This document shows, in pieces, positions 2,710 through 38,732 of a DNA stretch of 64,000 bases. The stretch's first letter is position 1, and every line of letters begins with the position of its first letter. The stretch is taken from contig OZ316893.1 of NCBI GenBank assembly GCA_973895155.1, positions 22,541,844-22,605,843 on the forward strand, given 5' to 3'. The translations under genes were made by a program, and so were the position numbers. This stretch comes from Marsupella aquatica (taxonomy: Eukaryota > Plantae > Marchantiophyta). The notes below the pieces were generated by a model. The model made no database searches, was not told the DNA's origin, and saw nothing but the letters and a program-made list of their open reading frames with translations.

Positions 2710-3180
2710 ACTTTTCCGATACTCAAAACACGCATTTCTCAACACGCCCAATACTAAACACGACGAAAAATGTCCGATACTCCCAGCTACGGAACTTCCA
2801 ATACTACTAACATCGGACATTATTATCCGATATGTTTTGTATCAAAAACTTTGTCCAATACCCCGCATATCGGACAATGTTTGAAACCTCCTGTATTGCA
2901 AATTGAGAGCCAAAATGTTTTTCAGACGTCCGATGATAATAGTATCGGAAGCCAATTCTGATTGGTTTGGTTTCGGACATTTACCGATACAAGTATTATT
3001 GGACATATTTTTGCAATACTAATTACAACGGAAAACATTTGCGAAGGCTAAGATATCAGTGACTATCCATTGGAATTGCTATCGGACCCCTCCTCGGTTG
3101 CGGGCTTAAGCGTCCAATCCGTGGAGTATCGGATAATGGCTTCCGATTGTTATAGTATTAGAAAATCCGATACTTTGAGG
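2710..3180. repeat. Left CACTA subterminal repeats (TCCGAT/ATCGGA), continuing at 18765-18858 after the Gypsy insertion
   Basis: Many direct and inverted copies of TCCGAT(A)/(T)ATCGGA, typical of CACTA subterminal binding arrays. Confidence 0.85.
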
Positions 3181-7873: not shown

Positions 7874-7877
7874 TTTT

Positions 7878-7894
7878 TGGCGCTAGATGGAGGG
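7878..7894 (+). promoter_or_regulatory. Primer-binding site, complementary to plant tRNA-Asn 3' end (1 mismatch)
   Basis: TGGCGCTAGATGGAGGG 4 nt after the LTR. Plant tRNA-Asn(GTT) ends ...CCCTCCTTCTAGCG-CCA (recalled, not looked up). Confidence 0.75.
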
Positions 7895-7942
7895 GGCATT
7901 TCTTAAGCCGTGAGATATGAAGTTAGAACGGAAGCATAGGTA

Positions 7943-10930: not shown

Positions 10931-13900
10931 ATACCAAGGGATCGGCATACAAGCCGATTACGAGGGCAGAACAAATTGAGGCCCTATTAGAAGCCGAGAG
11001 AGCACAACGGCCTAACTCTCAGGAGCAAGAGGTGGATGAGATGGACAGACACGATCCAGAGCCAAGGCAGGAAGGGGTGCCGACCACCAATTCAAAACCG
11101 AATAGACCGGCAAGGGGACAATCTATGGACACCAAGGACGGGACCGACTCGGCTAGTCCAGCCGAGATCCCAGTTTATGGAGGTATGAGATTAGAGAGAC
11201 TGGAAGCCAAACTGGACCCGAATTTGAAGAAGCAGATTAATATGATCCAAGCACGGCAATATCGGAAGCTCGACTTAGGAGAGGGAAGAGAACTGAACTT
11301 AGGGAGAAACCTAGCACCTGAGCTCGAGAAAGAGATCAGTGACTTATTGATTGAATTTCAGGATGTGTTTGCATGGAGTCACCAAGATCTAAAGGGAGTA
11401 GATCCAACACTAGGGGAACATCGAATTGATCTCATGTTAGGAGCCAAATCATTTCGACAACCAATTCAAAGGATAAACCCGAAGTATTCCCTGCTGGTCA
11501 AAACAGAAATCGACAAACTAGTGGAAGCTGGATTCATCACTCCAGTCCTGCATTCAGACTGGGTGTCTCCAATTGTGATAGTTCCCAAGAAAGCTGGACC
11601 CGATGGTAAACCCAAGATCCGAGTTTGTCAGGATTACAAGAAGCTGAATGAAGCAACATTAAAAGACCATTTTCCTTTACCGTTTACTGATATGGTATTA
11701 GACATGGTAGCCAGTCATGAACTATATTCATTCATGGATGGATACTCTGGTTATAACCAAATCAGGATTCGGCAGGAAAACCAAATCAAGACGGCCTTCA
11801 TCACGGAATGGGGGATCTATGTCTTCAATCGTATGCCGTTTGGACTCTGCAACGCACCAGCTATGTTTCAACGATTAATGGTGAACATTTTTCATGATTA
11901 CTTGAGAAAATTCATGGAAATCTTCATTGACGACTTTGCAGTATTCGGGAAGGCATCGAAACATGCTAAATACCTCAGGAAAACCTTCATGAGATGTAGA
12001 GAGGTGGGTCTCAAGTTACACCCAGATAAATGTTTCTTTGCAGTAACCGAGGGGGTGCTACTAGGTCACAAGGTATCAAGGAAGGGCATTGAGATTGACA
12101 AAGGTAAGCTAGCAGTATGGCTAGATATCATGCAACCTAAGAACATAAAGGATGTAAGATCCTTCTTGGGATGCATTGGTTACTATCGCCGGTTCATCAA
12201 GGATTTTGCCAAGCTAGCTTTACCATTAACCAACATGCTCAAGGCAGGAGCAGACTTCGAACCCACACCCGAACGAGTCACAGCGGTGGTAGAATTGAAG
12301 CAGATGTTAGTAGAGGCCCCAGTCATGATAGCACTGGACTGGAACAAAGATTTTCATGTTTTTGTAGATGTCTCGGGCTTCTGTATTGGCTCAGTACTAA
12401 GTCAGTTGGATGAGAAAGGAAGGGACCATCCCATATACTTCGCAAGCCGTCAGCTTGCCGATGCCGAACGGAACTACTCTACCACAGAAAGAGAAGCATT
12501 AGGAGTCATTTATTCTTGTAAAAAGTTTAGGCATTATTTACTAGGGTACAAGGTAATCTTTCATACCGATCATGAAAGTTTGAAGTACCTAGTCAATAAG
12601 CCGGACCTTACAGGCAGAGTAGCAAGATGGATTTTGCTATTACAGGAGTTTGACTATGAGCTGAGAATCAAGCCGGGAAAGTTACATGCCAATGCCGACT
12701 TCTTTTCAAGGATCACAGGTAAACCTGCCACGGATTGCATCGATGATCGATTCCCCGACGAGGAGCTATTCGTTGTGGAAATAGCTGGTACATGGTACCC
12801 TGAGATTTTACAATTTCTCAGCACTTCCAGATTACAGCCAGGATTAAGCCGAGAGCAAGCCGCAGTCTTTGTGCGGAAGGTCAGACAGTATCAGTGCATT
12901 AAAGGCATACTGCACAAGCATGGAATCAACGGCACGATTCAAAGATGTTTGGAAAAGAGAGAGGTAAAACGAGTCCTACGGGCCATGCATGGAGAGGAGG
13001 CCGGAGGACATTTTGCCCAAGTAACCACGTCTAAGAAGATATTAAATGCCGGTTACTGGTGGCCCACCTTGCACAAAGATGTCTATCAGTTTATCAAACA
13101 ATGCGATCCTTGTCAACGAGCGGGAGGACCAAGGGCGTCCACCAGGCATCCACTGCACCCTATTCTACCTCTGGCACCATTCGAGAAGTGGGGTATTGAT
13201 TACATTGGACCTCTGAAACCACTGACCCACCCTCGACGGAACAAGTACATAATCCTGGCTACGGATTATGCAACTAAATGGGTAGAGGCCAGACCAACAA
13301 CGAAGGATGATGCAATTACTACGGCTAGATTCATGTATGAGCAGATCTTCACCAGGTATGGAGCACCCCTAGAATTAGTTAGTGATAGAGGAACCCATTT
13401 TTTGAATGATATAATTAGTCGTTTAAATGAGCAGTATTTAGTTAAACATAGGCCTACTACTCCCTACCATCCAAAGGCAAACGGGTTGACAGAACGAGCA
13501 AATGGAATTATAGGAAAGATATTGAACAAACCAGTAGCTCAGAACAAACTTGATTGGGACGATAAATTGTTTGCTGCTGTTTTTGCTTACAATCTTGCCT
13601 ATAAATCCACTACCGGTCATACACCCTTCTTCTTAACCTTTGGACAAGAAGCCCTGGTACCCATGCAACTTGAGACACCGACATTTCAAGTTACAATTGA
13701 GGAAAGAGCCTCAGCGGAGGAGAGCCTAAAGGAGCGAGAATATAGGTTAGAAGCTTTAGAGGAAGCGAGAATGATTTCAGCCGAGAGAGTAGAATATAGA
13801 CAGAATATCATGAAGCAGCAGTATGATAAAAAGTTGAAAGTAGTTAGTATTCATACCGGTGATCTTGTGCTACTTTATGACAATAGGTATAGTAGGTTTC

Positions 13901-14103
13901 CAGGAAAGCTTTACACTCGCTGGTTAGGACCCTTTAGAGTAACCATGATGTTCCCCAATGGCTCCGTACAATTGGCCAACATTACGGGAGAGGTATATCC
14001 AGTTCGCATCCATTATGACCGCCTCAAGAAATACTATATGGACGAAGATGAAGTTGTTCGCGAGGACGCTTCACAATTAAGTGGGGAGCTATGTGATGCC
14101 TAG
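10837..14103 (+). CDS. pol: Pol (RT-RNase H-integrase), intact 1088-codon frame at -1 relative to gag-PR
   Basis: RT: RVCQDYKKLN, MDGYSGYNQI, MPFGLCNAP, FIDDF. RNase H: DVS..IGSVL..NYSTTEREAL..TDH. Integrase: H-H-C-C, WGIDYIGP, SDRGTHF, NGLTE and WLGPF (GPY/F). The stop codon lies inside the 3' LTR. Confidence 0.96.
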   Translation: MGSSSRDSGFSAGVVAEPAGFTTLSIIGKELNTKGSAYKPITRAEQIEALLEAERAQRPNSQEQEVDEMDRHDPEPRQEGVPTTNSKPNRPARGQSMDTKDGTDSASPAEIPVYGGMRLERLEAKLDPNLKKQINMIQARQYRKLDLGEGRELNLGRNLAPELEKEISDLLIEFQDVFAWSHQDLKGVDPTLGEHRIDLMLGAKSFRQPIQRINPKYSLLVKTEIDKLVEAGFITPVLHSDWVSPIVIVPKKAGPDGKPKIRVCQDYKKLNEATLKDHFPLPFTDMVLDMVASHELYSFMDGYSGYNQIRIRQENQIKTAFITEWGIYVFNRMPFGLCNAPAMFQRLMVNIFHDYLRKFMEIFIDDFAVFGKASKHAKYLRKTFMRCREVGLKLHPDKCFFAVTEGVLLGHKVSRKGIEIDKGKLAVWLDIMQPKNIKDVRSFLGCIGYYRRFIKDFAKLALPLTNMLKAGADFEPTPERVTAVVELKQMLVEAPVMIALDWNKDFHVFVDVSGFCIGSVLSQLDEKGRDHPIYFASRQLADAERNYSTTEREALGVIYSCKKFRHYLLGYKVIFHTDHESLKYLVNKPDLTGRVARWILLLQEFDYELRIKPGKLHANADFFSRITGKPATDCIDDRFPDEELFVVEIAGTWYPEILQFLSTSRLQPGLSREQAAVFVRKVRQYQCIKGILHKHGINGTIQRCLEKREVKRVLRAMHGEEAGGHFAQVTTSKKILNAGYWWPTLHKDVYQFIKQCDPCQRAGGPRASTRHPLHPILPLAPFEKWGIDYIGPLKPLTHPRRNKYIILATDYATKWVEARPTTKDDAITTARFMYEQIFTRYGAPLELVSDRGTHFLNDIISRLNEQYLVKHRPTTPYHPKANGLTERANGIIGKILNKPVAQNKLDWDDKLFAAVFAYNLAYKSTTGHTPFFLTFGQEALVPMQLETPTFQVTIEERASAEESLKEREYRLEALEEARMISAERVEYRQNIMKQQYDKKLKVVSIHTGDLVLLYDNRYSRFPGKLYTRWLGPFRVTMMFPNGSVQLANITGEVYPVRIHYDRLKKYYMDEDEVVREDASQLSGELCDA
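14079..14091 (+). promoter_or_regulatory. Polypurine tract
   Basis: AAGTGGGGAG(CTA) immediately 5' of the TG of the 3' LTR. Confidence 0.8.
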
Positions 14104-17100
14104 ACAGGAATCACTCGGCCGGTTAAGTGGGTAAAGCAGGAAGGCACCCTAGGAACACCTTAGTATAGGGACAAAACAAGGAAAATATAAACAATTAGGG
14201 GCAACCATGGAACCCGGGCCGAGGCCGGAGGTAAGGCTGAGGGTGAAAACCCGATTAGGGTTAGGGCGCGTTAAGCGTCGGCGGCTAGGAAGGATCAACG
14301 GGAAGAAGGACCGGCAGAGGAGAGGGGTAAGGAGCGCTTGCAGGAGATGGTGGCTCATTTGCGAGCACGAACTAGGCAAACGACTACGGGAGGCCAACTA
14401 CTGTCAGCTGCTTAGGCAAGCACTCGGGGAGAGAATAGATACCGACGATCGACCTAAGGAGGGTATGAGCAACGTCAATCAAGCGGCACATTTCTGGGGA
14501 TGCTTGTTCGAACGGGCAACTGAGTACATCAAGACTTACGAGGACGAGGAATCAGAAAGGGCAGCTCGAGAACGGCAGGAGCTCGCTCGATTGTGGGAGC
14601 TGCAGAAGACGGCTTTCTTAGGAGGCGAACTCATCAAGGACGAGTTCCTGTGGACGCCTACTTCCAATCAACTCGACGATCTTCTGTTTTGCAAAGACAG
14701 CGTCGTCGGCATCCGAGAGGCCATCAAGAACTGCAACGATATACACTGGGAATTAAAGGGAAGCACGGAAAGGTGGACCCAGGCAACGGTGCTAGGAGAA
14801 ACCTCCACGGCAGCAGAGATGAAGAGGAAGGGAGCCGTCAACGATGAAGCCACCCCGGCAAAAAGAACGAGGTCAGCGGCACCAAAGAAGCCAGCCGAGC
14901 AGCAGAGCAGGAGGCAGGGAGAAGCCAAAGAGGAGGAGGTCGATCCCATCAAGGCCATTCCAACCAGGGATGACACCTGGAAGGGCTGGGCGGCAACCCT
15001 ACCGGTGGAGGTGCAACTACATTTTGCACGGAGGAGGATGCATGCTTTACGGCCATGCAGACCAAGAAGTACCAAGGCTTCATGGCCGGATCCGGCTTAG
15101 AGGCCTTTGTGAGATTACCATGGCTGAAGCCGGAGGTACCGGAGTCAGACCTATTAGAATTCGTGGGGTCATGGGAACCCGAGACCAATTGCACGAGGAT
15201 ATATGGGAAGGATTTCTATCTTACTCCCAAGGTAATTGCCGAAGTGTTTGGCTTGCTGATAGGCAATAAGACCAAAGTTGATACCAGGAAGACCTTGCCT
15301 GACAAGGAGTTCCGGTCGTTCCCCGGGCCATCAACGAAGAATGGCTTCTTCCGGAACACCTGCACCAACCCGCACATAGGAGAGATGATCGACTTCTTGC
15401 GGGTGACCATGCATTGTAACTTGCCGAGGGCAGAGATCGGCAAGGCACAGGTCTATCTGGCAGAAAGGCCAGACCCAAGTCGGGACTACAACGGGTACCT
15501 CCTCAACCAATTGAAGAAGATCTTAAAGGAGGAGCAGCAGGTAATCGGCATGGGGAGCGTGTCGCGGCTTGGCTATCACATGCCGCTGTTGTGCCGGTAT
15601 GCCAGAGGTCAGACTTTTGCCCCAGTACTTCCCCTGCAGGTAAGGGCACCCGAGGAAGCTCCAACGCCGAGGCCGTTGGCTGAGAAGCCTCAACCACCTG
15701 TTAGCCCTACAATCGAGCAGGTGTTTAGGCCCAGGAAGGAGGACTTGCCGATGCAGCAACCAGGCATGCAGAGTCTGCTGAAACTACTGGAGAACGAAAA
15801 GAAATTGGCATCGGCAACAACAACGGCAACGGCAACAATGCAGGACACTACTACAGAGGTAGGCCTACACCGGCTCACAAGAGAAAACCCCTTTGCTGGA
15901 GACAAGGAGAGGATCAGGCCTGAATCCAAGTCAGGTGTTCGAATGTATGTGGGAATCTCAAGCTCCGAATCTGAGGCAGAATTGCCTGAAGCTCCTACCG
16001 ACGAAGAGGAGAGGGAGAAGCCGGACGTCCAAGAGGTAGAGGAGGCAGTGGAGGACTGCAGCCATGATAATTCCGGCTATGGGTCGGACCATCACGTTCC
16101 AGGAGTAAGGACCTGTGGCCGGTTTGTCCCCACACTTCCAAGGGTAGTGCGAGGGGACCCCAACCAGCAGAGTAGCCCTGAGTCTCCCCCACCAGATGTT
16201 GCTCCCCCGAGCTTCGACGGCATAAAACAGATGGTGCAGGAATTTCAGGAGCGAATCAAGCAGGAGGAGGAGGCAGCCCTAGCTAAGGAAAAGGATTTAC
16301 CAGGAGGAGATTGGCCGGAGGACATCAGGCGGCTAGCCAAAAAAGGAAGCAAACCTCTAGCCACGATTGAAGAGATCCGCAGGACGGCTTGGGAGCAGAG
16401 GCCGCGATGGGCGATGCCGATCACTTCTACTTACTCCACCTACGCTAAGAATAGAGCCATGGAGTATGGTGAGATGTGTGGGGAACTTGCGCTCGGCATC
16501 TTTGGAGAGGAGTTGGAGGTAGGACCCTTTTTCCATAGGGAGCAGTTGGAGAAGCACCAATTAGAAGAAGCGGTGGCTTTAGAGAGAAGCAAGAAGGACG
16601 AGGTCATTCGGCGGCTTAGGAGGATGGAAGCCGAGATTGAAGATCTAAGGGCGGCCAAGAAAGCCCAAGATGAACTGCGGATTAAACGACATGAGCTGAA
16701 CATCATGCAGGGGCAGTTGGACACCGCGCAGGCTGATAATCAGAATATCAAGGATAAACTGACTCAGACGCAGGGAGAGTTGGCCGACACGATCAAAGAG
16801 AGGGAGAAGTGGAAGCAAGAGCTGAAGAATACAGAGGAGGCCCACATAACAGCCAACAGCCGGGCCATGGCGGAGACCCAAAGAAAGGAATGGGCGTTGA
16901 AAGGGGAGCTCGAGAAAATCCGCGGAGCCCTTGAGCAGAAGGAGGCCGAGTTAGGGAAATCCTATCAAGGGATTATGGCGCTGCAGCAGGAGCTTGCGTC
17001 CCTGACGGCCAGCTTCAAGGCCGACCTAAGGGAGAAGGACGAGATGCTCGAACAGACTTACGCCAAGATGAACCAGATGGAGTCTGTCATCATTGCAGAG

Positions 17101-18759
17101 CTCGACAAGGAGCTAAGAGCAACCCGGGAGGAGAGGACTACCTTGAAACAAGAACGGGAGGAAGCCCAGAAGGAACTAGAGGAGGCACGCAAGGACCTGG
17201 ATGAGACCCAGGAGGAGTTGGAGGAAATCACGAGGAAGATGGAGAACCTCCAGCGGCGGGCCGACAACCAAACGGAGCGGCTGAAGAAACAAGCCGCAGT
17301 ATTTAAGTGCTTGTCTTCATCAGGCCCAACTCCAATTGGGGCAACCAAGTTACCAGGAGTGGTACTGGCCGAAGAAAAAGCCGCGCCAACTGCACCAGTG
17401 CCGGAAGTAAGTGGGAAGGGGAAGGGACCAGCTGCCGAACCAGAAAAGAAGAAAAAGCGGAAACCTTCAGGGTCAAGGAGTAATCCGACTCCACAAGCCG
17501 TGGTGACCAAAGAGGTAGAACCAGCACCATCCTCCGACATGAATACGGCAATAGATCCCGCTATGATCACAGGTGGGGGTGGTGCGGCCCAAGCCGAACT
17601 ACTCAGTAAGGAGGCCGGTATTCCAGATCCGCCTCTTGAGCAGGCCGGGGAGACCGTAGCCGAGGCTGAGGCCGTAACCGATTCCCGAGCCGATGCCGAC
17701 GCCGATGGTGGACCCAGTCAGGCCGATGGAGAGTTGACTCAGTCAAGGGCAGGTAATCTGTCAGGGAATGAGCCTACGGCAGTGGCTGAGGAGGAAGCGT
17801 TGGGGGCGTCCATTAAGGATCCACCACCGGTGTCGTGACGGTGCAAGGGCGCCATTCCTTTTAGGGAGGGCGGACGTGGAGGGAGGAGGCGTGAGTGGGC
17901 AGGGCGGGCGCGGATCTCCACGTTTAGGATTAGGATCAGAACCAGGAGCGGCCCTGACACTTAGCTTAGTGGGATTGCGGTCCCACTGGTAGGAGCAACA
18001 CTTGTGCTCCTGCCTTGCTGTACATAGGTAGATTCGGGCAAGTAGATTACTGTTAAGTAGATTAGGCTTACGATGCAAAGAATGGCGGATCCACTACCAG
18101 GATAAGTACCTGGGCAGCGGGGAGCTCAGGGCCTCTTCTTTAGCAAGTTTTTAGTTTGCACCAGCCGGGCTGGGATCAAGTAGTACGAGAAGCTCTCGGT
18201 TAGTCATACAGTGACCCTTGTGTATATTCATGTTTCCTCATGCCTAAGAGCTGAATAGAGTTGGCCTCACGTCTTAGTTCGCAGAACTTGTGTATGAGAT
18301 GTACTGTTTGTATGGCAAGTGCATGGTATGACTCAGTCAGAATGAGTCATTTTGCTATTTGTGTGTCGCATTAACTTGTGTGAAGAGTGCCCACATCAAC
18401 CAAAGGAAGGAAAGTAAGCAGGGGAGTGAGAGTTGGATGTGTCGAGCTGAGAGAGGTCTTAGCGGCTTAACCAAGCCTATTGGGGATCATTCCGGCGGCG
18501 GAATCCAAACATACCTAACAAGACGAAGGGGAAGACAGGGGAAGACAGGGGAAGGCCTAGATTAGGCCGGCTACGTATCTCATGACCCGATGAAGGATCT
18601 GTCCAGTATATGTGTGTAAAATGTTAATAGTAGTAGTAGAAGGTTAGCAGCGTCCCATGCCGCTAAGCCGCGGAAACGGCCTCGCCAAGCGCGAAACCCG
18701 CGGGAATCGACTTGAGCTGGGGGGTTTCTTGGGTTTAGGGAGCCATGGGACGCACCATA
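14092..18759 (+). repeat. 3' LTR, family A (4668 bp; terminal CA mutated to TA)
   Basis: Direct repeat of 3196-7873, followed by the TSD GTTTT. Confidence 0.97.
14207..17838 (+). CDS. LTR-encoded accessory gene, 3' LTR copy: 297-aa and 927-aa frames separated by one 1-bp frameshift (~15030)
   Basis: ORFs 14207-15100 and 15055-17838. The solo-LTR copy reads through this junction (HFAREEDACFTAMQTKK), giving a 1210-aa ancestral ORF. Confidence 0.85.
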
Positions 18760-18858
18760 GTTTTTTGCTTTGGCAGTACTGATGTGTGTCCGATATGTTT
18801 CCGATGTTATTTGAATGGGATATGGTATGGGACTTTAGTGTTTTACAATGTCTAGGTT

Positions 18859-23231: not shown

Positions 23232-26200
23232 ACTAACTCGTGGGGGGCACGTCTCTATCTTCCACTACAACTACGTTGGGTCTCTCTTGGACTATGGACC
23301 ATGATTTGGGAATATACGGCATGACAATGGACCACTCGGGGTCATTGGGATAGGGTAGGTAAAAGCATTGCTCAAGGTGATGTGGGAAGCCAAAGGGATT
23401 GAGGACCTCCAGTTGGAACTGATGACACTATTTGCGGATGTCTTCAAACGAGTAAAACCGCATGCATCACCTTCACAAGTACGATTGTAGCCTACAAGAT
23501 TCATCTTGAACCATTTTCACTTGAATACCACTTCCTCAAAAGTAGTATGTGCATGGTACTTCACTGTTAGGATCTCCTCAATCTTCCCATAATGGGCCAT
23601 AGTGGAGCAAATGGGATTCATGTCTGACATGCTAGCTACTATGGGAATCTTGGGTGAACCAACCCATCACCCCACAATCCTGTGTAGCTGCCCTCTTCTC
23701 ATCAAATTGTTCCACATGAAAATGTCTCCCCTTTGACCACATGGCAGTCCAAGTCGTGACTATAAGTAGTGGACCATGAACCAAGGTACAAAGTTTATCT
23801 GTCACGTTTGGGTAGTGTAATACACTCTCCCCGGTACACACCATGGCATCCACTTCTAACAACTTCTCCTTCATGTATGGGTGAAACTTGGGAAATAACC
23901 ACGGGCGTCAACTGCTTTGCTTCTCCTCCTCATAAAATGTTGTCCACTCCCCAAAAACCTCGGGTGAGTTATACAACATAAATGTTGTGAGCTGTAAATG
24001 CTCCGCTGAGCCTATGAGACGCTCTCCAGATGCCCTAGTGAGTCTATCATCCTTGTAGTCAGCCTCTCATGCCGCCTCATCTATCCATCCCCTAGGAGCA
24101 CTAGGATCTAGTGTGGCAACTATGTTTGTAAAGTAAAACATAAGTCTCTATACTCTAAGATGACGCTCCGCAATGCTACCTTCCACCCTAGCACAATTAA
24201 AGACATATGACTTCATCACCCCCATATAACACTCTACCCAATACATCCATCGACAATGTACTAGGCTTGCAATTGCAACCTTGCGCACTAAATGTATGAG
24301 GAAATGAACCTGACCATCAAAGAATGAGGGAGGGAGTGCCTTCTCCAACTTGCAGACAACCTCTACTCCAAATATCTCCATAGTAGCAATGTCATCCTCC
24401 TGTACCTCCTTTTGACATACCCATCTTAAGAGCTTACCCAATGACCAAAGGGCATCACGAAGTTCCTCACTACCCAATCCATAATAGCAATTGGAAGAAC
24501 ATGTTCAAGCAATCGATGATAATCATGTATCTTCAAGAAAGATGGCCATTTTGGAGAATCCTCCCCCCCAAAATGCCTTCCAAAGATTGGTACCATAACC
24601 TGTGGGAAACCTCATCGACCCAATATGTCTGCGAAACTCAATGCACTCTGCCCTTGTCAAAACCCCGGGTCAAAACCCAAGGAGGATGGATGCTAGGGGG
24701 AGCACCAGGGGGTCCAAAGATGGCCAAAAACCCAAAAGACCATGCATCCCCATCTCCTCACAACTTTCTCTCCAATTGTTATTTTTCTCCCCATATAGAT
24801 GGCGAATCAATGATTTCCCCACATTCCTCTCAATGTGCATAGGGTCTAACAAGTGATTAATGGGCATATTTGACCAATATGGCAATTGTGACAATGCAGA
24901 CAAACGGGTCATGCCACATCTGAATAATGGTAATGGATCACTCGGATCCTGAACTCTCCCCCATATCTCTCTCCAATATGCTGGATCCTTCCGCTGAGGT
25001 TGAGGACGAATATCAGGTTGGCCCTCATCAGTATCATAAAGGAATGGATCACTCCTCCAAGGATGGTCTGGTGGAAGATATTTAGTATGACCAATGTAAA
25101 CAATTTTTTGCAGAGTACTTGACTTGGGCCTGGCCAGTACCCCCTCCAAATTGGGTTCACATGTAGAGCAAGCCGGATAGCCTGATGTTTTCAATCCAGA
25201 AACATATCCAAACCCTGCCCAGTGCATAGAAAACACATTCATAAAATAAAGTTCATCCGGGGGTTCATCAAGGCAAAAATCTGCATAATTGCAATTATGC
25301 AAGGTTTAGGTACTAGAGGAAATAAGGGTTTACCATACCTGGTAAATCATGCATGGTCCACATAAGGATGGCCTTTAGAGTAAATGCGCGGGATAAACCT
25401 CCTATGTTGTGACGTCCATCATAACAATCCACTCCTCTCCACAGTTGTATCAACTCATCAATCAATGGCTACAAGTACACATCAATCTTTTTAACCTGCT
25501 TAGGACCCGGAATAATCATGGAGAGTAGTAGACCGTGACCTTTCTTCATGGCCATCCAAGGATGGATGTTGTAGTTTGTCAACACTACTGGCCACACCGA
25601 ATATGGTTTGGCTTTTCCTGCCAATGCAAAAGGGCTGATACCATCTGCCGCCAAGCCTAGTCGAACATGTCGTGGGTCAATTTTGAACTCTCCCCATCTA
25701 TCCTCTACAAATCGATTGGCAGGAGAGTCAACCATCATGTACTCAGTTGCCCGTTCGAACAGGCATCCCCAAAAATGTGTCGCTTGATTGACGTTGCTCA
25801 TACCCTCCTTGACTCGATCGTTGATATCTGTTCCCACCCAGAGTGCTTGCCTAAGCAGCTGACAGTATTTGGCTTCCCGTAGTCGTCTGCTCAGTTTGTG
25901 CTTGCAAATGAGCCACATGGCACTAGAGGGTACATCCATATTAGAACAATTTTTTGAGTGCCATACCATCATCTCAACCGACTCTGCACATCGGAATTGA
26001 TGTCGCAATCGAGGGATACGAGGAAACTTGTACCTCATAACCTTTTGCGGTACCTTCCCCGTCAACATGTCATCACGGTACCGTGGCTTATGACATTTAG
26101 GACATGTACTCGCATTTTCATGCTCACCCCTAAAAACAATGCAATCATCCACACATGCATGTATCACCTCATACTTCAGGCCAATGGACTTCAACACCTA

Positions 26201-26685
26201 TTTAGCCTCTTTCCAAGAGGCTGGCATTGCGTTGCCTACTGGCAAAATACGATCATGCAAGGTACGGAAAAATCATCCAAAAGTAGATTGCTTGCCCCAT
26301 GTCTTTGCTGCAAGTTGAGCAACAACATTATTGATGAGAGCCGAGATAACCTACTCCCCTCAAATATGCGAGTACGGGCATGACGTTGCGCCTCCTCCCA
26401 TTGCTTGTCTTGGGACCCCCTAGAAGGATATGGATGACTAGTATTTTCATGGGTTGAACCATGGTCCTCCAAACCAATGTCATCATGATCATCATAGAAT
26501 TGGTCCATGAGCTCATCCATGGCCCTCTCCTCATCAAGATGGTCTTGGATAGGATCATCACCATCATGTCGTACCCCATCTTCTTGCCTTTGCGGTTCAT
26601 GCCCACGGTTGGCCACCATGGCCTCAACAAGGTGTTGTCGCATAGCTCGTGATATTACCCCAATATCAGGAGTTACATATTGATT
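23232..26685 (-). pseudogene. TNP2/TNPD-like CACTA transposase (Transposase_21, DUF4218 and DUF4216-like regions), with frameshifts, stops and a 180-bp LTR-derived insertion
   Basis: IHACVDDCIVFRGE..CPKC..RY, DPRHVRLGLAADG.SPF, SVWPV..NYN..PW, IIPGPKQ..IDVYL, WTMHDLP, LPYW..HLLDPMHIERNV, PPSFFDGQVHFLIHL, RWMY.VE.YM..KSYV.N.ARVEGSIAE, HYGKIEEI. Intron at ~25245-25340. Splice acceptor at 26686-26687. Confidence 0.93.
25737..25916 (-). mobile_element. 180-bp fragment of the family-A LTR ORF inserted in-frame in the transposase
   Basis: Encodes WLICKHKLSRRLREAKYCQLLRQALWVGTDINDRVKEGMSNVNQATHFWGCLFERATEY, homologous to LTR 3454-3633. Confidence 0.93.
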
Positions 26686-26809
26686 CTATCATACAACATC
26701 AATTAATTAATCTCATCAACACATGCACTGTTGAACAACATCATTCTCATGTAAACATGTAAAATAAACTAACATGATATATATACATGTATTTAAGTCC
26801 AAGAAACTA

Positions 26810-27585
26810 TCATGGATGACAACGCAAGGACAATTTTGGTGCATCCCATTCATACTCACACAATAACTCCTCACCAGCTCTAATGGTCCTAACAGCTACT
26901 GTCATGATATGGTTGTCCATATGTTTCACAAAATATGGATGTCTAGGTGGACCAAACATTTGAATCCACTCTATATTAGCCTCCAAACCTCTATCTCTAC
27001 TTGTGGTACTATTGATGTACCCTGCTAAATTACCGTTCCAAATAGGATCACCATCAATCATTCGGCACTGCCACGGCCTAGTGAAGACCTCATCCGGGTC
27101 TGAGTCCATCCTCCATGCATACACCCCCCAACTTGGGTGTTGACGCAACAAAATATTTCAACTCTTGGAGTTATATACAGCCCCAATGTAAGGAAAGAGG
27201 TGCTCTCCATCATAACCATGTCTCCATGGCTTTGGAGGGACCACAATATGCTCCAAAGCAAAAAGACCATATCCTATATCAGGACCAATAGAGGATGCCT
27301 TCACTATCCAAGGGCGACCCCATATCTAAACTGGTTCATCAGTAGGAATAAAATCTGGAAATTTGAAGAGACTTGGAGAAAAGTCCTTCAAAACTTCGGC
27401 AGCCCTACCAGTGAGATAGGATAGTCCAAACCTGCCCTCAATGCAAATATAATCTACGTTGCCGGCTGGTTGATCAGTAGTACCTAACACCTCCTCTCGG
27501 CTGTCTACCTGGTCCAGTGGTCCATACTGCCGTCTATGTGACCTACGAGATTGTGGTCGTGTACGTAGGACCCTAGTAGTACATC
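26810..27585 (-). pseudogene. SET-domain (lysine methyltransferase-like) gene carried by the CACTA element; two premature stops
   Basis: One frame: WIVKASSIGPDIGYGLFALEHI..FPYIGAVY..IDGDPIWNGNLAGYINS..AN..HIMTVAVRTIRAGEELLCEYEW, i.e. SET motifs GxG, GN.A.(F/Y)IN(H/S) and GEEL..Y. Stops at 27326-27328 (TAG) and 27158-27160 (TGA). Confidence 0.85.
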
Positions 27586-28471
27586 ACAACCTTGGGCCGA
27601 GAGACCGGTTCCCCCTCTACATGCTCATGTGTGGGCATGCGAGTGGGGATAGGAGTAGGTGGGCTAAGAGGCATCTGGGCAGGAGGAATTGCAAGCAACT
27701 CCCTGGCCCTTGTTAGAAACCCTTCCAACCACACAGCTTCAGGAACCAAAGGAGGTGGGGGCCTACGAGGCACCTATCTCAACACACGTACAATGGTTTT
27801 ACACAAATCAATAAATTAAGTAGTGGGATGTAAATGCAAGATAATTAAGCAATACCCTAAATTGGAATGCATATATGGAATGAATAGGGGACATAAACAT
27901 ATCTGTACCTGGCTAGGCAAATACCCTGGCATCTCGGGGATTTCACTTCCACAAAAATGACATATCACGTGCGATGAAGTATAGGGTCATTTTATTGGTT
28001 CAAAGGGAAGACTTAAGAATTTTATGAGAAGAACAATAGGGTCTTTTAAATCCAATTTTGAGACTTATAAGAACATTAGGGTCCTTATAACCAAAATTTT
28101 GGAATATTCCAAGAATATTCTAACTTTATAGGGGTTGAAAAAATAATTTTTTTTCTTACATTTTAGGGGGTCCAAGGCCTAAAAACGTTGCAAGTGATGG
28201 GGAGGCATCCATATAGTGAGACCCCCGAGCCTGGCATATCACCCTCGTGGCGGCCATAGTTCTCGATGTGCTCACAAGTCTCCCACGCATGTCGAACCAC
28301 AAGTCCCTTACATCTCACACACCAGCAAGGTATGGGTCCTAGTGGAGCACAAGGACGATCTGGAGGAGGGGGTGGAGGAACCACCCCCTCAGACGAGCTT
28401 GTGTTTGAGTCTGAATCTGACGTAGAACTATCAGAAGTAGACATCTGCATGCATGAAGTACACTCATTCAT
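27573..28471 (-). CDS. Putative upstream exons, including a transposase-associated C-x-C-x2-C...H zinc motif
   Basis: IPCWCVRCKG...CEHIENYGRH resembles the N-terminal transposase-associated domain of CACTA proteins. AG acceptor at 27774-27775 precedes PRRPPPP. Confidence 0.55.
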
Positions 28472-29860
28472 GTAAGCTGCATAAAAGAAGACAAGTGTTG
28501 GAGTATCAAAATAGAATTAATTAATGCATGAGATACAAAAGTCCTGTTGCACCTCAATGATACCCGCGCTTTGCCATCCTATTGTGTCGTATTTTCTACG
28601 TGACACAAGGTGTGGGACATCCAAAATCTCTCCATATATGGGTGAGCATTTTGCTAATGAGCATACATAATCTGTAAGTGCGAAAGAGTGTAGAAAGAAC
28701 ACACCACATATAAAAAATGCCAACATACAAATTAAGTGTAAATGATGCGGCTCATGAAGCGGGGACATCATACCTCTTGGATGCGCGGTCTCACACTATG
28801 CATAGTGCATTGTCCAAAACAAAACCTACCTACCCCCTCACAAACATCGAACCACCCCTCCAAATGCAAGGTACTGTGCATCAAATCCAACACAACCATT
28901 AGCCTAATATATGGAGGTTGCACCTTATCCTAAGAAAAGGTGTGGTGCGTCCCATGGCTCCCCAAACCCAAGAAACCCCCCCGTACAAGCCGATTCCCGC
29001 AGGTTTTGTCCTCGGCGAGGCCGTTTTTACGGCTTAGCGGCATGGGACGCTGCTAACCCACCTTCTACTACTACGATTAACATCTTATGTCCACACATAT
29101 ACTGGACAGATCCTTCATCGGGTCATGAGATACTTAGCCGGCCTATTCTAGGTCCTCCCTTGTATTCCTCTCCTGGTCTTCCATTAGGTATGTTTGGATT
29201 TTGCCACCGGAATGATCCCCAATTTGGCTTGGTTAAGCCGCTAAGACCTCTCTCAGCTCAACACATCCATCTCTCACTCCCTTGCTACTTCCCTTCATTG
29301 ATGTGGGCACTCTTCACACAAGTTAATGCGACACACAAATAGCAAAATGACTCCTTCTGACTGAGTTATACCATGCACTTGCCATACAAACAGTACATCT
29401 CATACACAAGCTCTGCAAACTAAGCCGTGAGGCCAACTCTATTCAGTTCTTAGGCATGAGGAAACATGAATATACACAAGGGTCACTGTATAACTAACCA
29501 AGAGCTTCTCTTACTACTTGATCCCAGCCTTGCTGGTGCAACTAAAAACTTGCTAAAGAAGAGGCCCTGAACTCCCCGCAGCCCAGGTACTTATCCTGGT
29601 TGTGGATCCACCTGATTCCTTGCAGCGTAAGCCTAATCTACTTACTGTAATCTACCTAACTGTAATCTACCTATGTACAGCAAGGCAGGAGCACAAGTGT
29701 CGCCCTCACTCGTGGATCCGCAATCCCACTAATCTAAGTGTCAGGGCCGTCTCCTGGTCCTGATCCTTAGTCTAAACTTGGAGATCAGCGCCCGCCCTGC
29801 CCACTCACACCTCCTACCTCCATGTCTGCCCTCCCTAAAAGGGACGGCTCCCTTGCACCG

Positions 29861-32800
29861 TCACGACACCGGTGGCGGGTCCTCAATGGACGCCCCCAAC
29901 GCTTCCCCCGCAACCACTGTCGTTGGTCCGTCCTCTGACAGATTACCTGCCCCGGACCGAGTCAACTCTTCATCGGCCTGACTGGATCCACCCTCGGCTT
30001 CGGCCTCAGCATCGGCCACGGCCTCCCCGACATGTTCTAGTGGAGGATTTGGTACCTCGGCTTTAGTACTGGTTGTCCCAGCCTCGGCCTTGCCATCCCC
30101 ACTTCCTAGGACTGGTGGATCCACCGCCGTGCCGATGCCGGAGGTTGGTGCCGGTTTTATCTTCTCGGTCACAACGGCTTGAGAAGCCGTATAACTCCCA
30201 GACCTAGAAGGTTTCCACTTCTTCTCCTTCCCTATTTCGACAGCCGGTTCCTTCCCCTTGCCACTTACCTCCGGCACCGGGGTGAGTGTCTTGGCTTGTC
30301 CTTCGACCAATACTACCCCTGGTAACTGGGTTGCCCCAATTGGAGTTGGACCTGATGAAGCCAAGCATTTAAATACTGCGACTTGTTTCTTTAGCCGCTC
30401 CGATGGGTTGTCGGCCCGCCACTATAGGTTCTCCATCTTCCTCGTGATTTCCTCCAACTCCTCCTGGGTCTCATCCAGGTCCTTGCACGCCTTCTCCAGC
30501 TCCTTTCTGGCTTCCTCCAATTCTTTCTTTAAGGTAGTCCTCTCCTCTTGGGTTGCTCTTAGATCCTTGTTGAGCTCTGCTATGACCACAAACTCCATCT
30601 TATTCATCTTGGCATAAGTCTGGTCGAGCTGGTCGTCCTTTTCACGCAGGTCGGCCTTGAAGCTGGTCGTCAGGGATGCAAGCTCCTACTGCAGCGCAAT
30701 AATCCCTTGATAGGATTTCCCTAACTCTGCTTCCTTTTGCTCAAGGGCTCCATGGATATCCTCGAGTTCCCCCTTTAATGCCCTCTCCCTTCTCTGGTTC
30801 TCCGCCATGTTGGCCTGATTGTTGGTTGCTAAGTGGGCCTCCTCTGCGTCCCTTAGCTCCCGCTTCCATTTCTCTCTTTCCTTGACTGCGCCGGCCAACT
30901 CTCCTTGGGTCCGAGTCAGTTTATCTTTGATAATCTTATTGTCAGACTCAGCGGTATCCAACTGCCCTTGCATGATGTTTAGCTCATGCCGCTTAATCCG
31001 CAGCTCATCTTGGGCTTTCTTGGCCGCCTGTAGGACTTCCACCTCGGCTTCCTTCTCCCGAAGCCGCCGGATGACCTCGTCTTTCTTGCTTCTCTCCAAA
31101 GCCACCGCTTCTTCTAATCGGTGCTTCTCCAATCTCTCCCTCTGGTAGAAAGGTCCCTGCTCCAACTCCTCCCCAAAGATGCTGAGCGCCAGGTCCCCAC
31201 ACATCTCCCCGTACTCTATGGCTCTATCCTTAGCATAGGTGGAGTAAGTAGAAGTCATCGGCAACAACCACCTCGGCCTCTGTTCCCAAGCCGCCTTGCG
31301 GATTTCTTCTATGGTTGCTTCTTTTTTTGGCAAGCCGCCTGATGTCCTCCGGCCAATCTCCTCCTGGTAAATCTTTCTCCCTAGCCAGGGCTGCCCTCTC
31401 TTCCTCCCTGAGTCGCTCCTGAAAGTCTTGTGCCGTCTGCTTTATGCCGTCAAAGCTCAGGGGAGCAACCTCTGGTGGGGGAGACTCGGGGCTACTCTGC
31501 TGGGTGGGGTCCCCTCAAACTACTCTTGAAAGTGTGGGGATAAATCAGCCACAGGTCCTTACTCCTAGAACATGATGATCCGACCCATAGCCCGAGTTAT
31601 CATTGCTGTAGTCCTCCACCGCCTCCTCCACTGCTTGGACTCCCTGTTTCCCCCTCTGTTCCCCTGGTCCTGCCGTGCTGTCCTCTCTCGTTGCTCTCCG
31701 CGGGAAGGAGCCTTAGGCTGCTCTGCCTCCGATTCGGGGATTGAGGCTCCCACATACATTTGCACTCCTGGCTTGTGTTCCGGCCTCCTTCTCTCCTTGG
31801 CTCCGGTAAAGGGGTTTTCCCTCTTGAGTTGGCTTAGGCCAGGCAGTGTCCTATACTGGTGCCGTTGCCGTTGCTGGTGCCATTCTCTCCTTCTCCAGCA
31901 TTTTCAGCAGATTCTGCATGCCTGATTGCTGCATCGGCAAGTCTTCTTTCCTTGGCCAAAACACCTGCTTGATCGTAGGACTGACAGGCTGGTTGGGCTC
32001 TTCTGTTGCCGGCCTCTGCTCTGGAACCTCCTTCGGTGCCCTTGCCAATAGGGGAAGAACTGGGGCAAAGATTTGACTTCTGGCATACTGGCACAATAGC
32101 GGCATGTGATAGCCAAGCCAGGACACGCTTCCCATGCCGATCATCTGCTGTTCCTCCTTCAAGATTTTCTTCAGTTGATTGAGGAGGTACCCGTTGTAAT
32201 CCCGGCTTGGGTCTGGCCTTTCTGCCAGGTAGACCTGAGCCTTGCCGATCTTTGCCCTTGGCAAGTTACAATGCATGGTCACCCGCAAGAAATCGATCAT
32301 CTCTCCGATGTGCGGGTTGGTGCAGGTGTTCCGGAAGAAACCATTCTTCGTTGATGGTCTTGGGAACGACCGGAACTCCTTGTCAGGTAAGGTCTTCCTG
32401 GTATCAACCTTGGTCTTATTACCCATCGGCAAGCCAAACACCTCGGCAATCACCTGGGGAGTGAGATAGAAATCCTTCCCATACACCCTCGTGGAATTGG
32501 TCTCGGGTTCCCATGATCCCACAAATTCTAATAAGTCTGAGTCCGGCACCTCCAGCTTCAGCCATGGTAATCTTACAAAGGCTTCCAAGCCGGATATGGC
32601 CATGAAGCCCTGGTACTTCTTGGTCTGCATGGCCGTAAAGCATGCATCCTCCTCCCGTGCAAAATGTAATTGCACTTCCTCTGGTAGGGTCGCCGCCCAA
32701 CCTTTCCAGGTGTCATCATTTGTTGGAATGGCCTTGATGGGATTGACCTCCTCCTCTTCGACTTCTCCTTGCCTCGTGTTCTGATGCTCTGCTGGTTTCC

Positions 32801-33840
32801 TTGGTGCCGCCGACCTCGTTCTTTTTGCCGGGGTGGCCTCTTCATTGTTGTTTCCTTTCCTCTTCATCTTGGCTGCCGTGGATGTTTCTCCTAGCACAGT
32901 TGCCTTTGTCCATCCTTCCATGCTACCCTTCAATTCCTAGTGCGCGTCATTGCAACGGTTGATGGCTTCCCGAATGCCGACAATTCTGTTTTTGCAAAAT
33001 AGAAGGTCATTGAGCTGATTGGCAGTAGGAGTCCACAAGAACTTGGCCTTGATGAGTTCTCCTCCTAAGAAGGCAGACTTCTGCAGCTCCCGCAGTCGAG
33101 CGAGCTCCTGCCGCTCTCGAGCTGCTCTCTCCAATTCTTTGTCCTCGTAAGTCAGCCTGCATATGAATCCTGAATTTTATTTGCAAGTGTACACAGATGA
33201 TTTCTGCGAGCCATGCCGTATCTTGTTCGCAGTTCCAGTGAGCTCTTGGCTGTAAGCTGCAAACATACAGCAGCCGCGAGCGCATAACCAACTTCCTCGC
33301 GGAAAGCAAAAGCCCCAATAACAAACATAGGTTCAGCGTGTAGTAACCAAATGTTCGAATCATAAGCGAGGGAAAAAACGTATTTCATTTTATGAGCGCC
33401 TCGTATACTTGGCAGGTTGGGAGGCAGTGGAGGAAGACCTATATATAGGTACTCCTCGAAGAGCTAACCTTTTCTTTTATTGGCTACCAACACGATTTGT
33501 TTATGCCTATCAAAGAACCTTTAGAAGCTAATTCACGAAAAACTATACGAGAAATGCGAAATAACTTATATACGGAACGAGGGCGCCCTGTGAAAATACA
33601 CCGGTTTCTTACTCGTGTTTTGGAACTATTTCTTGGCAACTTAGACAACTTAGAAAAATATTCATAACGGTTACAGTAGACGTGGAATTTCCTCTATTCC
33701 TTGCGAGCGGTCCTTATCCCTCTCCTCCTCTAGTCTTCCCTCCCGTTGGTCACCCCTAGCCGCCGACGCTTAGTGCGCCCTAACCCTAATCGTATTCTCT
33801 CCCCCAACGTGTTTACTTCCAGCCTCGGCCCGGGTTCCAT
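29861..33840 (-). pseudogene. Degenerate LTR-encoded accessory gene in the solo LTR
   Basis: Fragments 32937-33134, 31851-32933, 30686-31333, 30422-30607 and 29861-30364 are homologous to the 297+927-aa protein. Several stops and frameshifts. Confidence 0.9.
33154..33690. other. ~537-bp non-LTR filler DNA of unknown origin replacing ~180 bp of the solo LTR
   Basis: Homology to the family-A LTR stops at ~33153 and resumes at ~33691. No match seen elsewhere in the window. Confidence 0.8.
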
Positions 33841-35215
33841 AGTCACCCTTAATTGTTTATATTTTCCTTGTCTTGTTAGTATACTAAGGTGTTTCCAGGG
33901 TACACTCCTGCTTTTACCATGTAAACCGGCCTAGTGATTCCTGGCTAGGCATCACAAAAGGTGTAACCTTATCCTAGTAAAACCCCATAACCCTAAACCC
34001 ATAAACCCCTCCAAAGAAATGATCCAAATAGCTTTCACCCAGAAATGGTTTGTACAAAAACTTCTTGTCAGCAGTATTTTGTCTATCATATATCATAGTA
34101 TTGATTTCCCATCACCACAACCATCCCTAAACTTGCAAGGAACTTGCAAGAGGACATCATACCTCCTGGATGCGCGGTTTCATGCATAGTGCATTGTCCA
34201 AAATCAAAACCTCCCTACCCCCTCAAAAAAAGTTAACCACCCCTCCAAAAGCAAGGTACTACACATCAAATCCAAACACAAAGATTAGCCTAATGGAGGG
34301 GTTTAATATTATCCTAACAAAAGGTATAATGTTATACTAATAAAACCTCTACGTACACCCATAATCCCCTATAAAGAAATGAAACAAAAGGCTTTCACCC
34401 GAAAATGGTTCATACAAAAACTTATTGTAGTATTTTCTTGATCCTATATTACATATCATAGTATTGAGTTCCTATCACCACAACCACCCCTGAAACACCA
34501 AGACTCTATACACAATTGCATCATTAATTAGAGCCCAATATATTAAGCATGCAAGACCATAGCTTATCAAAAAAATTACATAGTCCAGTACAAACCCCAA
34601 AATTTGTTCTCCGCAACAAAGAAACTTGCAAGAGGTCCCTCTACATGCATAACACGTTCACTATCCCGTTCACATATGTAGAGCCCTACAAAACGCCGAT
34701 TCAAATATGAAAGCAAATAATAACTCCAACCATGTGCCCTTACCCCATACAAAACCTAAATATCCTAAATTATACTCTAAACCCTCCAATTCCATACCCA
34801 ACCCAAATTCAAAACATTATATTGGACCCCCTTTGGGAAAGCCAAGAGGTATCTGATATAACTTCGTGAGGGGTCCGATGCAATAGGAAACGGGCCACAC
34901 TTAGTAAATACAGGGCCACAAGAAAAGGACGAGGGGTCCAAAGCAGATAGTTTTGGAAAGTCCGATTGTATGTCCGATACCTGTGGTTTTGCAAAGTCCA
35001 AAACAAAAAGAATCAAAAGTAACAGGTTTCATTTTGGAAAAAAGAACCGATGCAAGTGCAAAGACCCGCGCGTCGGGCCCTGTTTTGCACTTGGTGTTTT
35101 TCAAATTTTTTGAAGTTGGATCAAGGAGGAGAGCTTGAAGGAGGAGGAGAGATAGAGGGGGGGATCAGGTGGTGGGGGAGAGCAAGGGGGACCGTCCCAG
35201 CCATACAATGAGGTT

Positions 35216-37799: not shown

Positions 37800-38286
37800 T
37801 GCAAGTCCGTTACCATCCGTATCGGTAATACAACAGTGTTTGATATTGTTGCCTTTGAACTTTCCCATCCCCAACGCATCGGACCCCTCCTTCAAGGTTC
37901 CCATATTAAATCTATCGGATAGTCCGATACAAAAAATAACGCACTTTCCATTTTTCTAATTAACGCAATGTTTGATGCTAATTACTTCGCAAATTGCCAT
38001 ATGAAATCTATTGGACATTCCGATTTAAATAGGATCGGACAAAGGAAGTCATCGTGTGCCGTCGCGTGTTAGTTATCCGATTCATTTTACATCGGACATA
38101 AAATATCTGTAACACATTACAACGGAACATCCGTTGCTCAAAACATCAGAAAGTCTGATGGAAGTCCGATGGTCGATATGCAATGGTTTGGGCATTGCAA
38201 AGTGCGTTGGGAATTGCATCGGATGATAGAATTTTTTGCGTCAATTTTCCTGAAGGGATCCAATGTAAATCCTATCGAATAAATGC
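37800..38286. repeat. Right CACTA subterminal repeats
   Basis: Dense ATCGGA/TCCGAT motifs next to the right TIR. Confidence 0.85.
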
Positions 38287-38732
38287 CCAAAAATGTACTA
38301 GTGCAAGCGGGCGCACGTGTTTCCGGGATTATGTAAGCTAAGGGCCCAGGGGGCTCACATGCAGTATCAACTAGACTAACAGACTAGTAGCCTCCAGGTC
38401 CTTCAAATCAAAGGGGGAACCGCGTGCTGGATTGATAGTTAAAGGTGACACTGACGAAAAATGGAACTCAACCTTCTCAAACCCAGGTGGGGTGCCTTCT
38501 GCTTTGGTTGCATCTGGAATCACAGGGGACATACCGGATTCTAGCAAGGGTCAACATGGACTTTGCATCTGAAATCACTTTCTCCACCTGGTTGAATGCT
38601 CCTGTGATCTTCTAGGTAAAGCGGTTATTGCACTCAATAACCTTAGCAAGGGTGCCTGGGTTGGCTGTTGCCAAATACTTATCAATCAAATTGGCTTCCA
38701 ACAAGCCCAAGATCGGAACATGAAACGCTGCC

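What the first reader, a model, noticed from the sequence alone, without database searches (positions are those of the whole stretch)
26810..27585. CACTA transposon carries its own SET-domain methyltransferase-like gene
Seen: a complete intronless SET core (GYGLFA, Y.G.VY, IDG..GNLAGYINS, TIRAGEELLCEY) with no pre- or post-SET cysteine cluster, co-oriented with and directly upstream of the transposase. The only lesions in the core region are two transition-type stops. Established: SET domains methylate histone lysines, plant CACTAs usually encode TNPA/TNPD and sometimes a Ulp1 protease, and TE-encoded anti-silencing factors exist (VANC, TnpA). Inference: a transposon-encoded chromatin writer that may modify its own silencing state. 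It looks divergent from host SET families, which favours long-term cargo over a recent capture.
Basis: partly seen in the sequence, partly recalled or inferred. Interest (0 to 1): 0.82.

Follow-up and report, generated by a model that had tools for sequence, protein, structure and literature searches.

The report
Bryophyte CACTA transposon carrying SET gene
A broken copy of a plant jumping gene carries, just in front of its cut-and-paste enzyme, a two-exon gene with the predicted fold of a histone-marking (SET) enzyme; unbroken relatives occur in mosses and liverworts, and the element likely makes both proteins from one transcript and may use the SET protein to mark chromatin.

Summary
Confirmed in substance, corrected in detail. 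A SET domain (Pfam above cut-off; confident SET-fold model) lies on the minus strand 121 bases before a CACTA transposase exon, inside an element bounded by CACTA inverted repeats and a 3-base target duplication (2692-38303). The gene is not intronless: it has an upstream Cys/His exon (28471-27909) and a SET exon (27773-26813). This copy is dead: two stops (one transition, one transversion), a 4-base frameshift and a 305-base MITE; contigs of related copies lack these lesions. It belongs to an old family: 87 clusters at 50% identity; every organism-named relative is a bryophyte (Sphagnum, Calypogeia, Riccia), several gene models run from SET into a CACTA transposase, dN/dS about 0.27 in one pair. 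Exon 1 is in phase with both downstream exons, so it likely serves both proteins by alternative splicing (no RNA seen). Catalytic Tyr, Asn and GxG are conserved, but the usual His and a post-SET region are missing, so activity, substrate and anti-silencing are untested. Transposon-borne SET genes are known (HarbingerS, MuDR, red-algal Plavaka); I found no paper on land-plant CACTA. The scan noted this arrangement four times before in peat moss; this copy is another sub-lineage.

The parts
38284..38303 (-). CACTA terminal inverted repeat, 5' end of the element; CAA target duplication at 38304-38306
2692..2711 (+). CACTA terminal inverted repeat, 3' end of the element; CAA target duplication at 2689-2691
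27909..28471 (-). Coding exon 1 (258 coding bases without the MITE): Ser-rich start, proline run, CxCxxC...H motif; phase-0 GT donor at 27908. Start codon at 28471 is the first in-frame ATG after an AG, inferred
   Evidence: same layout in L001 and in gene models P0114, P0118, P0121
27925..28229 (.). 305-base MITE inserted in exon 1: short inverted ends, 8-base target duplication (hAT-like, inferred from the duplication length)
   Evidence: skipped by contigs in 3 of 4 runs (table 5)
27774..27908 (-). Intron 1, 135 bases, GT..AG, 32% GC
   Evidence: related contigs diverge beyond 27787 (table 7)
26813..27773 (-). Coding exon 2: proline-rich linker, family-specific N-flank, SET core; ends in TGA TAG (26812-26807). 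Lesions: 4-base insertion near 27580, TAG 27328-27326, TGA 27160-27158
26686..26806 (-). 121-base AT-rich spacer (26% GC) ending in an AG acceptor
24103..26685 (-). CACTA (TnpD-type) transposase, beginning at a phase-0 acceptor; Transposase_21 and DUF4218; broken by stops and frame changes; homology probably continues to about 23250
28941..33954 (-). Solo LTR inserted upstream of exon 1, 5-base target duplication AAAGG
3196..18759 (+). Ty3-type LTR retrotransposon nested in the 3' part of the CACTA element; LTRs 99.4% alike, 5-base target duplication GTTTT

Best explanation
This is a dead copy of a bryophyte CACTA family whose conserved accessory gene encodes a small SET-fold protein, likely made from the same transcript as the transposase by alternative splicing and predicted to be a lysine methyltransferase that would act on chromatin at the element. 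Shown: SET fold, position inside the terminal repeats, two-exon layout, lesions absent from related copies, old conserved family tied to CACTA transposases (about 0.93). Inferred: exon 1, with its CxCxxC...H motif, is spliced either to the SET exon (short protein, stop after the SET core) or past it to the transposase exon, so the SET exon sits in the first intron of the transposase gene, as TnpA and TnpD share one gene in maize En/Spm (about 0.65). Inferred: the SET protein binds SAM and methylates a lysine, probably needing a partner to complete the pocket because it has almost no post-SET region (about 0.5). Least supported: the target is a histone at the element's own chromatin and the effect is relief from silencing (about 0.3).
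For: Pfam SET above cut-off; model pLDDT 87.8, pTM 0.84; 199 PDB chains at E<=0.001, all listed ones SET. Terminal repeats plus target duplication, 1 of 4349 pairs. Related contigs read Trp at the second stop (99.7-100% of summed depth in 4 of 4 runs) and mostly Glu at the first (48-99.7%); 4-base and 305-base insertions are absent in contigs of 3 of 4 runs. 87 clusters at 50% identity; 35 of 53 scanned hit Pfam SET at E<=0.05; 13 of 62 hits carry an organism name and all 13 are Sphagnum, Calypogeia or Riccia; dispersed near-identical copies on five chromosomes in each of two Sphagnum species. 7 of 204 stored family proteins also match this window's transposase, 4 more run into the same downstream exon. 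In 61 non-redundant relatives chosen by coverage: GxG 59 and 60, Tyr106 61, Asn160 55, Glu208 59, terminal Tyr213 56. dN 0.58, dS 2.1 against L001. Exon 1 donor, SET acceptor and transposase acceptor are all phase 0; L001 has the same phase-0 intron. The transposase exon opens with a similar P-D/E-x-x-x-x-x-R-R-like stretch ahead of its first ATG in the window and in Riccia-type models, and 10 of 11 fused gene models join it from differing points that cut the SET core, as expected when a predictor meets an exon that has only an acceptor. A solved SET enzyme, Legionella LegAS4 (one entry bound to a histone H3 peptide), also lacks His after the Asn.
Against: No transcript was seen, so neither splice form is shown. 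The exon-1 motif matches Pfam Transpos_assoc only in 1 of 16 proteins, weakly (E 0.031, below cut-off), and no protein with exon 1 joined directly to a transposase was found (small search). Ser replaces His after the Asn in 59 of 61 and Gly stands three residues before the Asn in 56 of 61, where Arg is usual (MLL1 row). 32 of 52 relatives end within 7 residues of the terminal Tyr, whereas the post-SET region helps form the cofactor and substrate sites in solved SET enzymes (PMC3868588, passages). No SET subfamily stands out, so no substrate can be inferred. Most relatives have no genomic context here; L001 ends 228 bases after the SET stop and shows no transposase; two Calypogeia relatives have other N-termini, so not every family member need sit in a CACTA. 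dN/dS rests on one pair near saturation.
Confidence: 0.5

Rival explanations
1. Same cargo gene, but the protein is not a histone writer: it is a catalytically weak or dead SET fold that reads or shields a histone tail, or it methylates a non-histone target such as the element's own transposase or a host silencing protein.
For: No His after the Asn, Gly for the usual Arg, post-SET tail of 7 residues or fewer in 32 of 52; PRDM domains, several of uncertain activity (recalled), score as high as any (Z 11.0); a family-specific N-flank is as conserved as the core.
Against: Terminal Tyr 56 of 61, Asn 55 of 61, GxG 59 and 60 of 61 kept across sequences under 70% alike; LegAS4 lacks the His too.
Confidence: 0.3
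2. The SET domain is made as a fusion with the transposase (SETMAR-like), by a splice donor near the end of the SET exon, or the two are separate genes with separate promoters.
For: Riccia model P0051 holds a whole SET end followed by Transposase_21; a GTGAGT donor-like word lies at the end of the SET core in the window. Some Arabidopsis EnSpm families have split TnpA and TnpD genes (PMC13547354, passage).
Against: That donor is phase 1 and the acceptor phase 0 (sequence); 10 of 11 fused models cut the SET core at differing places; most complete relatives stop right after the core; only 121 AT-rich bases lie between SET stop and transposase exon, little room for a promoter, and conserved coding sequence precedes the first ATG.
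Confidence: 0.15
3. A neutral fragment of a host SET gene recently captured by one element (Pack-CACTA type).
For: This copy is decayed; gene capture by CACTA elements is common (recalled).
Against: Open frame in related copies; family spans mosses and liverworts with several sub-lineages per genome; dN/dS about 0.27; no named host SET gene among the hits.
Confidence: 0.03

Closest known systems
Plavaka (EnSpm/CACTA superfamily) accessory gene PAG2 of red algae, bioRxiv 10.1101/2025.02.11.637652 (passages read)
   Same: EnSpm-superfamily DNA transposon carrying a Pfam SET domain as long-lived accessory cargo; function proposed, not tested
   Different: PAG2 joins SET to an N6-adenine DNA methylase and is one of three separate accessory genes; here SET is alone behind a Cys/His exon, nested in a Transposase_21 (plant CACTA) gene. 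Sequence relation to PAG2 not tested (no sequence in hand)
HarbingerS and Phytophthora MuDR families with SET genes (Kojima and Jurka, Repbase Reports 2014, cited in PMC12730594; passage and reference list seen; the reports themselves not seen)
   Same: DNA transposons that encode a SET-domain protein
   Different: Other superfamilies and hosts; no shared-exon layout described in what I saw
Maize En/Spm and Arabidopsis EN/SPM3, EN/SPM7: TnpA and TnpD from one gene by alternative splicing (PMC13547354, passages)
   Same: CACTA element making an accessory protein and the transposase from one transcription unit (inferred here)
   Different: The accessory product here has a SET fold; that paper states TnpA-like domains are found only in flowering plants, so the SET protein may fill the accessory slot in bryophytes (inference)
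VANC of VANDAL (MuDR) elements and fungal TET/JBP transposons (PMC12730594, passages)
   Same: Transposon-encoded factors that act, or are thought to act, on the element's epigenetic state
   Different: VANC is shown to act; TET/JBP works on DNA methylation; here nothing functional is shown
SETMAR/Metnase (search listing only; otherwise recalled)
   Same: SET domain and transposase in one locus
   Different: SETMAR is a single-copy domesticated host fusion of a host SET gene with a mariner transposase; this is multi-copy mobile cargo, and fusion is the less likely reading

Membership tests
CACTA (En/Spm) DNA transposon | Terminal inverted repeats starting CACTA/CACTG | tested here: met
   17 of 20 alike at 2692 and 38303
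CACTA (En/Spm) DNA transposon | 3-base target site duplication | tested here: met
   CAA on both sides; 1 of 4349 pairs has both features
CACTA (En/Spm) DNA transposon | TnpD-type transposase (Transposase_21, DUF4218) | tested here: met
   E 6e-22, 3e-8 and 2e-22; broken in this copy
CACTA (En/Spm) DNA transposon | Transposase-associated N-terminal domain (PF13963) | tested here: inconclusive
   Exon 1 has a CxCxxC...H motif; Pfam hit only in 1 of 16 proteins, E 0.031
CACTA (En/Spm) DNA transposon | TnpA-like second gene | tested here: inconclusive
   No Pfam hit in 12 read-through frames of the remaining element; an unassigned plus-strand frame lies at 35464-36159
SET-domain lysine methyltransferase | SET profile and fold | tested here: met
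SET-domain lysine methyltransferase | GxG motif, cofactor-binding Asn, terminal catalytic Tyr (roles recalled) | tested here: met
   59-60, 55 and 56 of 61 non-redundant relatives
SET-domain lysine methyltransferase | Canonical R-x-x-N-H motif | tested here: not met
   G-Y-I-N-S: Ser 59 of 61, Gly 56 of 61; LegAS4 also lacks the His
SET-domain lysine methyltransferase | Post-SET region completing cofactor and substrate sites | tested here: not met
   32 of 52 end within 7 residues of the Tyr; 13 residues in the window, low confidence in the model
SET-domain lysine methyltransferase | SAM-dependent lysine methylation | not testable with these tools
   needs an assay
Host plant SET classes (E(z), ASH1, TRX, SUV, ATXR5/6, SMYD) | Class-specific flanking domains and close similarity to one class | tested here: inconclusive
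   No pre-SET, AWS, PHD or SRA domain in Pfam scans; structure scores tied at 17-29% identity; no tree with host SET sequences could be built (none in hand)
Viral SET proteins (vSET, giant-virus SETs) | Close sequence relative in virus genomes | tested here: inconclusive
   0 of 26 and 6 weak partial of 100 candidates in viral contigs; BFVD matches at 21% identity or less
Plavaka PAG2 / HarbingerS SET | Homology to those SET proteins | not testable with these tools
   Repbase and the preprint's supplements were not available

The most novel reading that the evidence does not exclude
Bryophyte CACTA elements have, since before mosses and liverworts split or by repeated transfer between them, replaced the TnpA accessory slot with a self-encoded minimal SET enzyme of a new subfamily, spliced behind the same Cys/His module that starts the transposase; that module steers it to the element, where it writes a histone mark that counters host silencing: the first chromatin-writing enzyme encoded by a land-plant transposon.
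Probability: 0.25. Interest if true: 0.88.

Novelty: new variant of a known kind. Interest (0 to 1): 0.62.

Why it matters
Transposon-borne SET genes have been listed in oomycetes and red algae but, in what I could read, never tested. This family is intact and multi-copy in mosses and liverworts, where PRC2/H3K27me3 takes part in silencing transposons (bioRxiv 10.1101/2022.10.24.513474, abstract) and where transformation models exist (recalled), so the question of whether a transposon can write its own histone marks becomes directly testable. The protein is also a structural oddity: a SET core with no post-SET region. It further warns that some bryophyte 'SET domain-containing' gene models are transposon products.

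Tried and rejected
No whole genome is held for this window, so copy number and dN/dS across sister elements could not be computed. Sequencing-run search: no RNA holder listed; all runs laid were contigs, summed depths are no copy number, and the best holders may include the source sample. Metagenome scan gave 1 locus of 69 candidates, too short to show a transposase. Viral contigs: no close relative. Single-sequence PDB search gave only E 0.3-0.7 hits to SETD8; not used to assign a substrate. A first conservation count selected rows by the motifs themselves and was circular; replaced by a coverage-only selection, 146 of 206 proteins, reduced to 61 under 70% identity. The tree is the quick search, midpoint-rooted, with no host or viral outgroup: used only to place the window, not to name a donor. 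The model of an intact full-length Sphagnum protein leaves the Cys/His module as one helix at pLDDT about 65: no fold assigned. ESM Atlas gave no result. No dimer or cofactor-bound model was obtained. The 675-aa frame at 20165-22192 is not related to the LTR frame and no flanked insertion was found around it. Literature: nine full-text searches; six of them aimed at SET genes in plant or bryophyte transposons showed no paper on a land-plant CACTA SET gene; subscription journals, Repbase and bioRxiv supplements are not covered and may hold such a description.

Full report
Observation. Read with X at the stops it hits Pfam SET at E 2.8e-5, 24.9 bits against a cut-off of 22.4. An AlphaFold2 model on a 46-row alignment has mean pLDDT 87.8; Foldseek gives 199 PDB chains at E<=0.001, all listed ones SET domains, and the wide structural search gives Z 11.0-11.8 for yeast SET1, SET8, PRC2, PRDM3/5 and SET7/9, tied, at 18-26% identity. 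Downstream on the same strand lie Transposase_21 and DUF4218.

The element. CACTA inverted repeats at 2692 and 38303 agree in 17 of 20 bases and are flanked by CAA on both sides; this is the only one of 4349 candidate pairs with both features. A Ty3-type retrotransposon (3196-18759) and a solo LTR (28941-33954), each with a 5-base target duplication, are nested inside. The transposase has several stops and frame changes. This copy is dead.

Gene structure. The SET frame is the second coding exon. Exon 2 starts at an AG acceptor at 27773 in a neighbouring frame and is shifted by a 4-base insertion near 27580 that contigs in 3 of 4 runs lack. Exon 1 (28471-27909) encodes a Ser-rich start, a proline run and a CxCxxC...H motif, and is split by a 305-base MITE with an 8-base target duplication; contigs in 3 of 4 runs skip exactly this piece. 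The metagenome locus L001 (43% identity) has the same two exons and a phase-0 intron, and the Calypogeia model P0114 joins the equivalent exons. At the stops, related contigs read TGG at 27160-27158 in 99.7-100% of summed depth in 4 of 4 runs, and GAG at 27328-27326 in 48-99.7% (two studies, two organism labels; depth is no copy number). So one stop is a transition and one a transversion, and the lesions are largely private to this copy.

The family. A search of 1.84 billion cluster representatives gave 87 hits at E<=0.001, 55 at 1e-10; 35 of the 53 I scanned hit Pfam SET at E<=0.05. A profile search gave 62 hits; the 13 with an organism name are all Sphagnum, Calypogeia fissa or Riccia sorocarpa. 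One Sphagnum cluster has 360 members, and listed members fall on five chromosomes in each of S. fallax and S. magellanicum, as expected of a transposon gene. 7 of 204 stored family proteins also match this window's transposase, among them Riccia P0051, P0074, P0156 and Sphagnum P0190; four more continue into the same downstream exon. 23 of 206 stored proteins carry the Cys/His motif. In a quick tree of 66 rows the window groups with P0002 and Calypogeia P0114 (SH-aLRT 100), apart from the Sphagnum clade, which holds another Calypogeia protein: several sub-lineages coexist in one genome. The host is therefore probably a bryophyte, perhaps a liverwort (inference). More distant members (P0079, P0083, P0086, P0151-P0155; Calypogeia P0063, P0071 with other N-termini) have no known context here. 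No close viral relative was found.

Constraint. Among 61 relatives under 70% identity, chosen by coverage only (146 of 206 passed), the GxG glycines are kept in 59 and 60, Tyr106 in 61, Asn160 in 55, Glu208 in 59 and the terminal Tyr213 in 56. Window against L001: 199 codons, position identity 0.55, 0.67, 0.38; dN 0.58, dS 2.1, ratio about 0.27, one pair near saturation. Against activity: Ser follows the Asn in 59 of 61 and Gly replaces the usual Arg in 56 of 61, and 32 of 52 end within 7 residues of the Tyr, while the post-SET region takes part in cofactor and substrate binding in solved SET enzymes (PMC3868588, passages). LegAS4, a solved SET protein, also lacks the His.

Mechanism. The transposase exon begins at a phase-0 acceptor (26685), 121 AT-rich bases after the SET stop, with a stretch similar to relatives ahead of its first ATG, and it lacks an N-terminal Cys/His domain of its own. 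The exon 1 donor is also phase 0. Ten of 11 gene models that fuse SET to the downstream exon do so from differing points that cut the SET core, the pattern expected when a predictor must supply a donor. The simplest reading is one transcription unit with two products: exon 1 plus SET, and exon 1 plus transposase, like TnpA and TnpD in maize En/Spm and two Arabidopsis families (PMC13547354, passages). This is inferred: no RNA was seen, the motif matches PF13963 in only 1 of 16 proteins at E 0.031, and no direct exon 1-transposase protein was found. That the SET product methylates histones at the element, and in which direction, is untested; the tied structure scores give no substrate.

Comparison and novelty. 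SET genes in DNA transposons are known: HarbingerS and Phytophthora MuDR families (PMC12730594, passages and references) and Plavaka elements of red algae, which belong to the EnSpm/CACTA superfamily (bioRxiv 10.1101/2025.02.11.637652, passages). Six searches aimed at plant or bryophyte cases showed none in print; Repbase, subscription journals and preprint supplements were out of reach. After reaching this reading (stated, which found no look-alike by sequence), I found four earlier scan notes with the same layout in peat moss; they are AI notes, not independent proof. This window adds a different sub-lineage with intact termini. Verdict: real, conserved, a new variant of a known kind; interest 0.62.

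Noticed in passing
window 3454-3633 and 14350-14529: Both LTRs of the nested Ty3 element hold a 180-base piece 89-90% like the CACTA transposase (25737-25916, opposite strand); the related solo LTR lacks it. A retrotransposon LTR carrying an antisense transposase fragment; contig depth over that stretch is about ten times its surroundings.
   Followed up: partly
window 3196-7878, 14092-18764, 28941-33954: Very long LTRs (about 4.7-5 kb) that each contain a 954-aa open frame with no convincing Pfam match.
   Followed up: no
window 35464-36159 (+), with more decayed frames to about 37500: Plus-strand frame inside the CACTA 5' part, divergent from the SET/transposase unit; by eye resembles TnpA-like proteins (recalled), no Pfam hit.
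   Followed up: partly
window 20165-22192 (+): Intact 675-aa frame inside the CACTA boundaries, opposite strand, no Pfam hit, unrelated to the LTR frame, no flanking duplication found; second cargo gene or nested insertion.
   Followed up: partly
window 793-1421 and 22469-23089: A 650-base stretch just 3' of the transposase is 68% like a stretch outside the element.
   Followed up: no
window 48828-50093 (+): NB-ARC (STAND NTPase) frame, E 3e-9, a possible immune-receptor gene.
   Followed up: no
proteins P0063/P0099 and P0071/P0110: Calypogeia members of the same SET family with different N-termini (one weakly DUF5763-like): the SET module may have moved to other elements or to the host.
   Followed up: no
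window 60900-62100: Degenerate array of 18-19-base pyrimidine-rich units, and 39-base and 84-base tandem repeats at 60048-60281 and 54775-55064.
   Followed up: no
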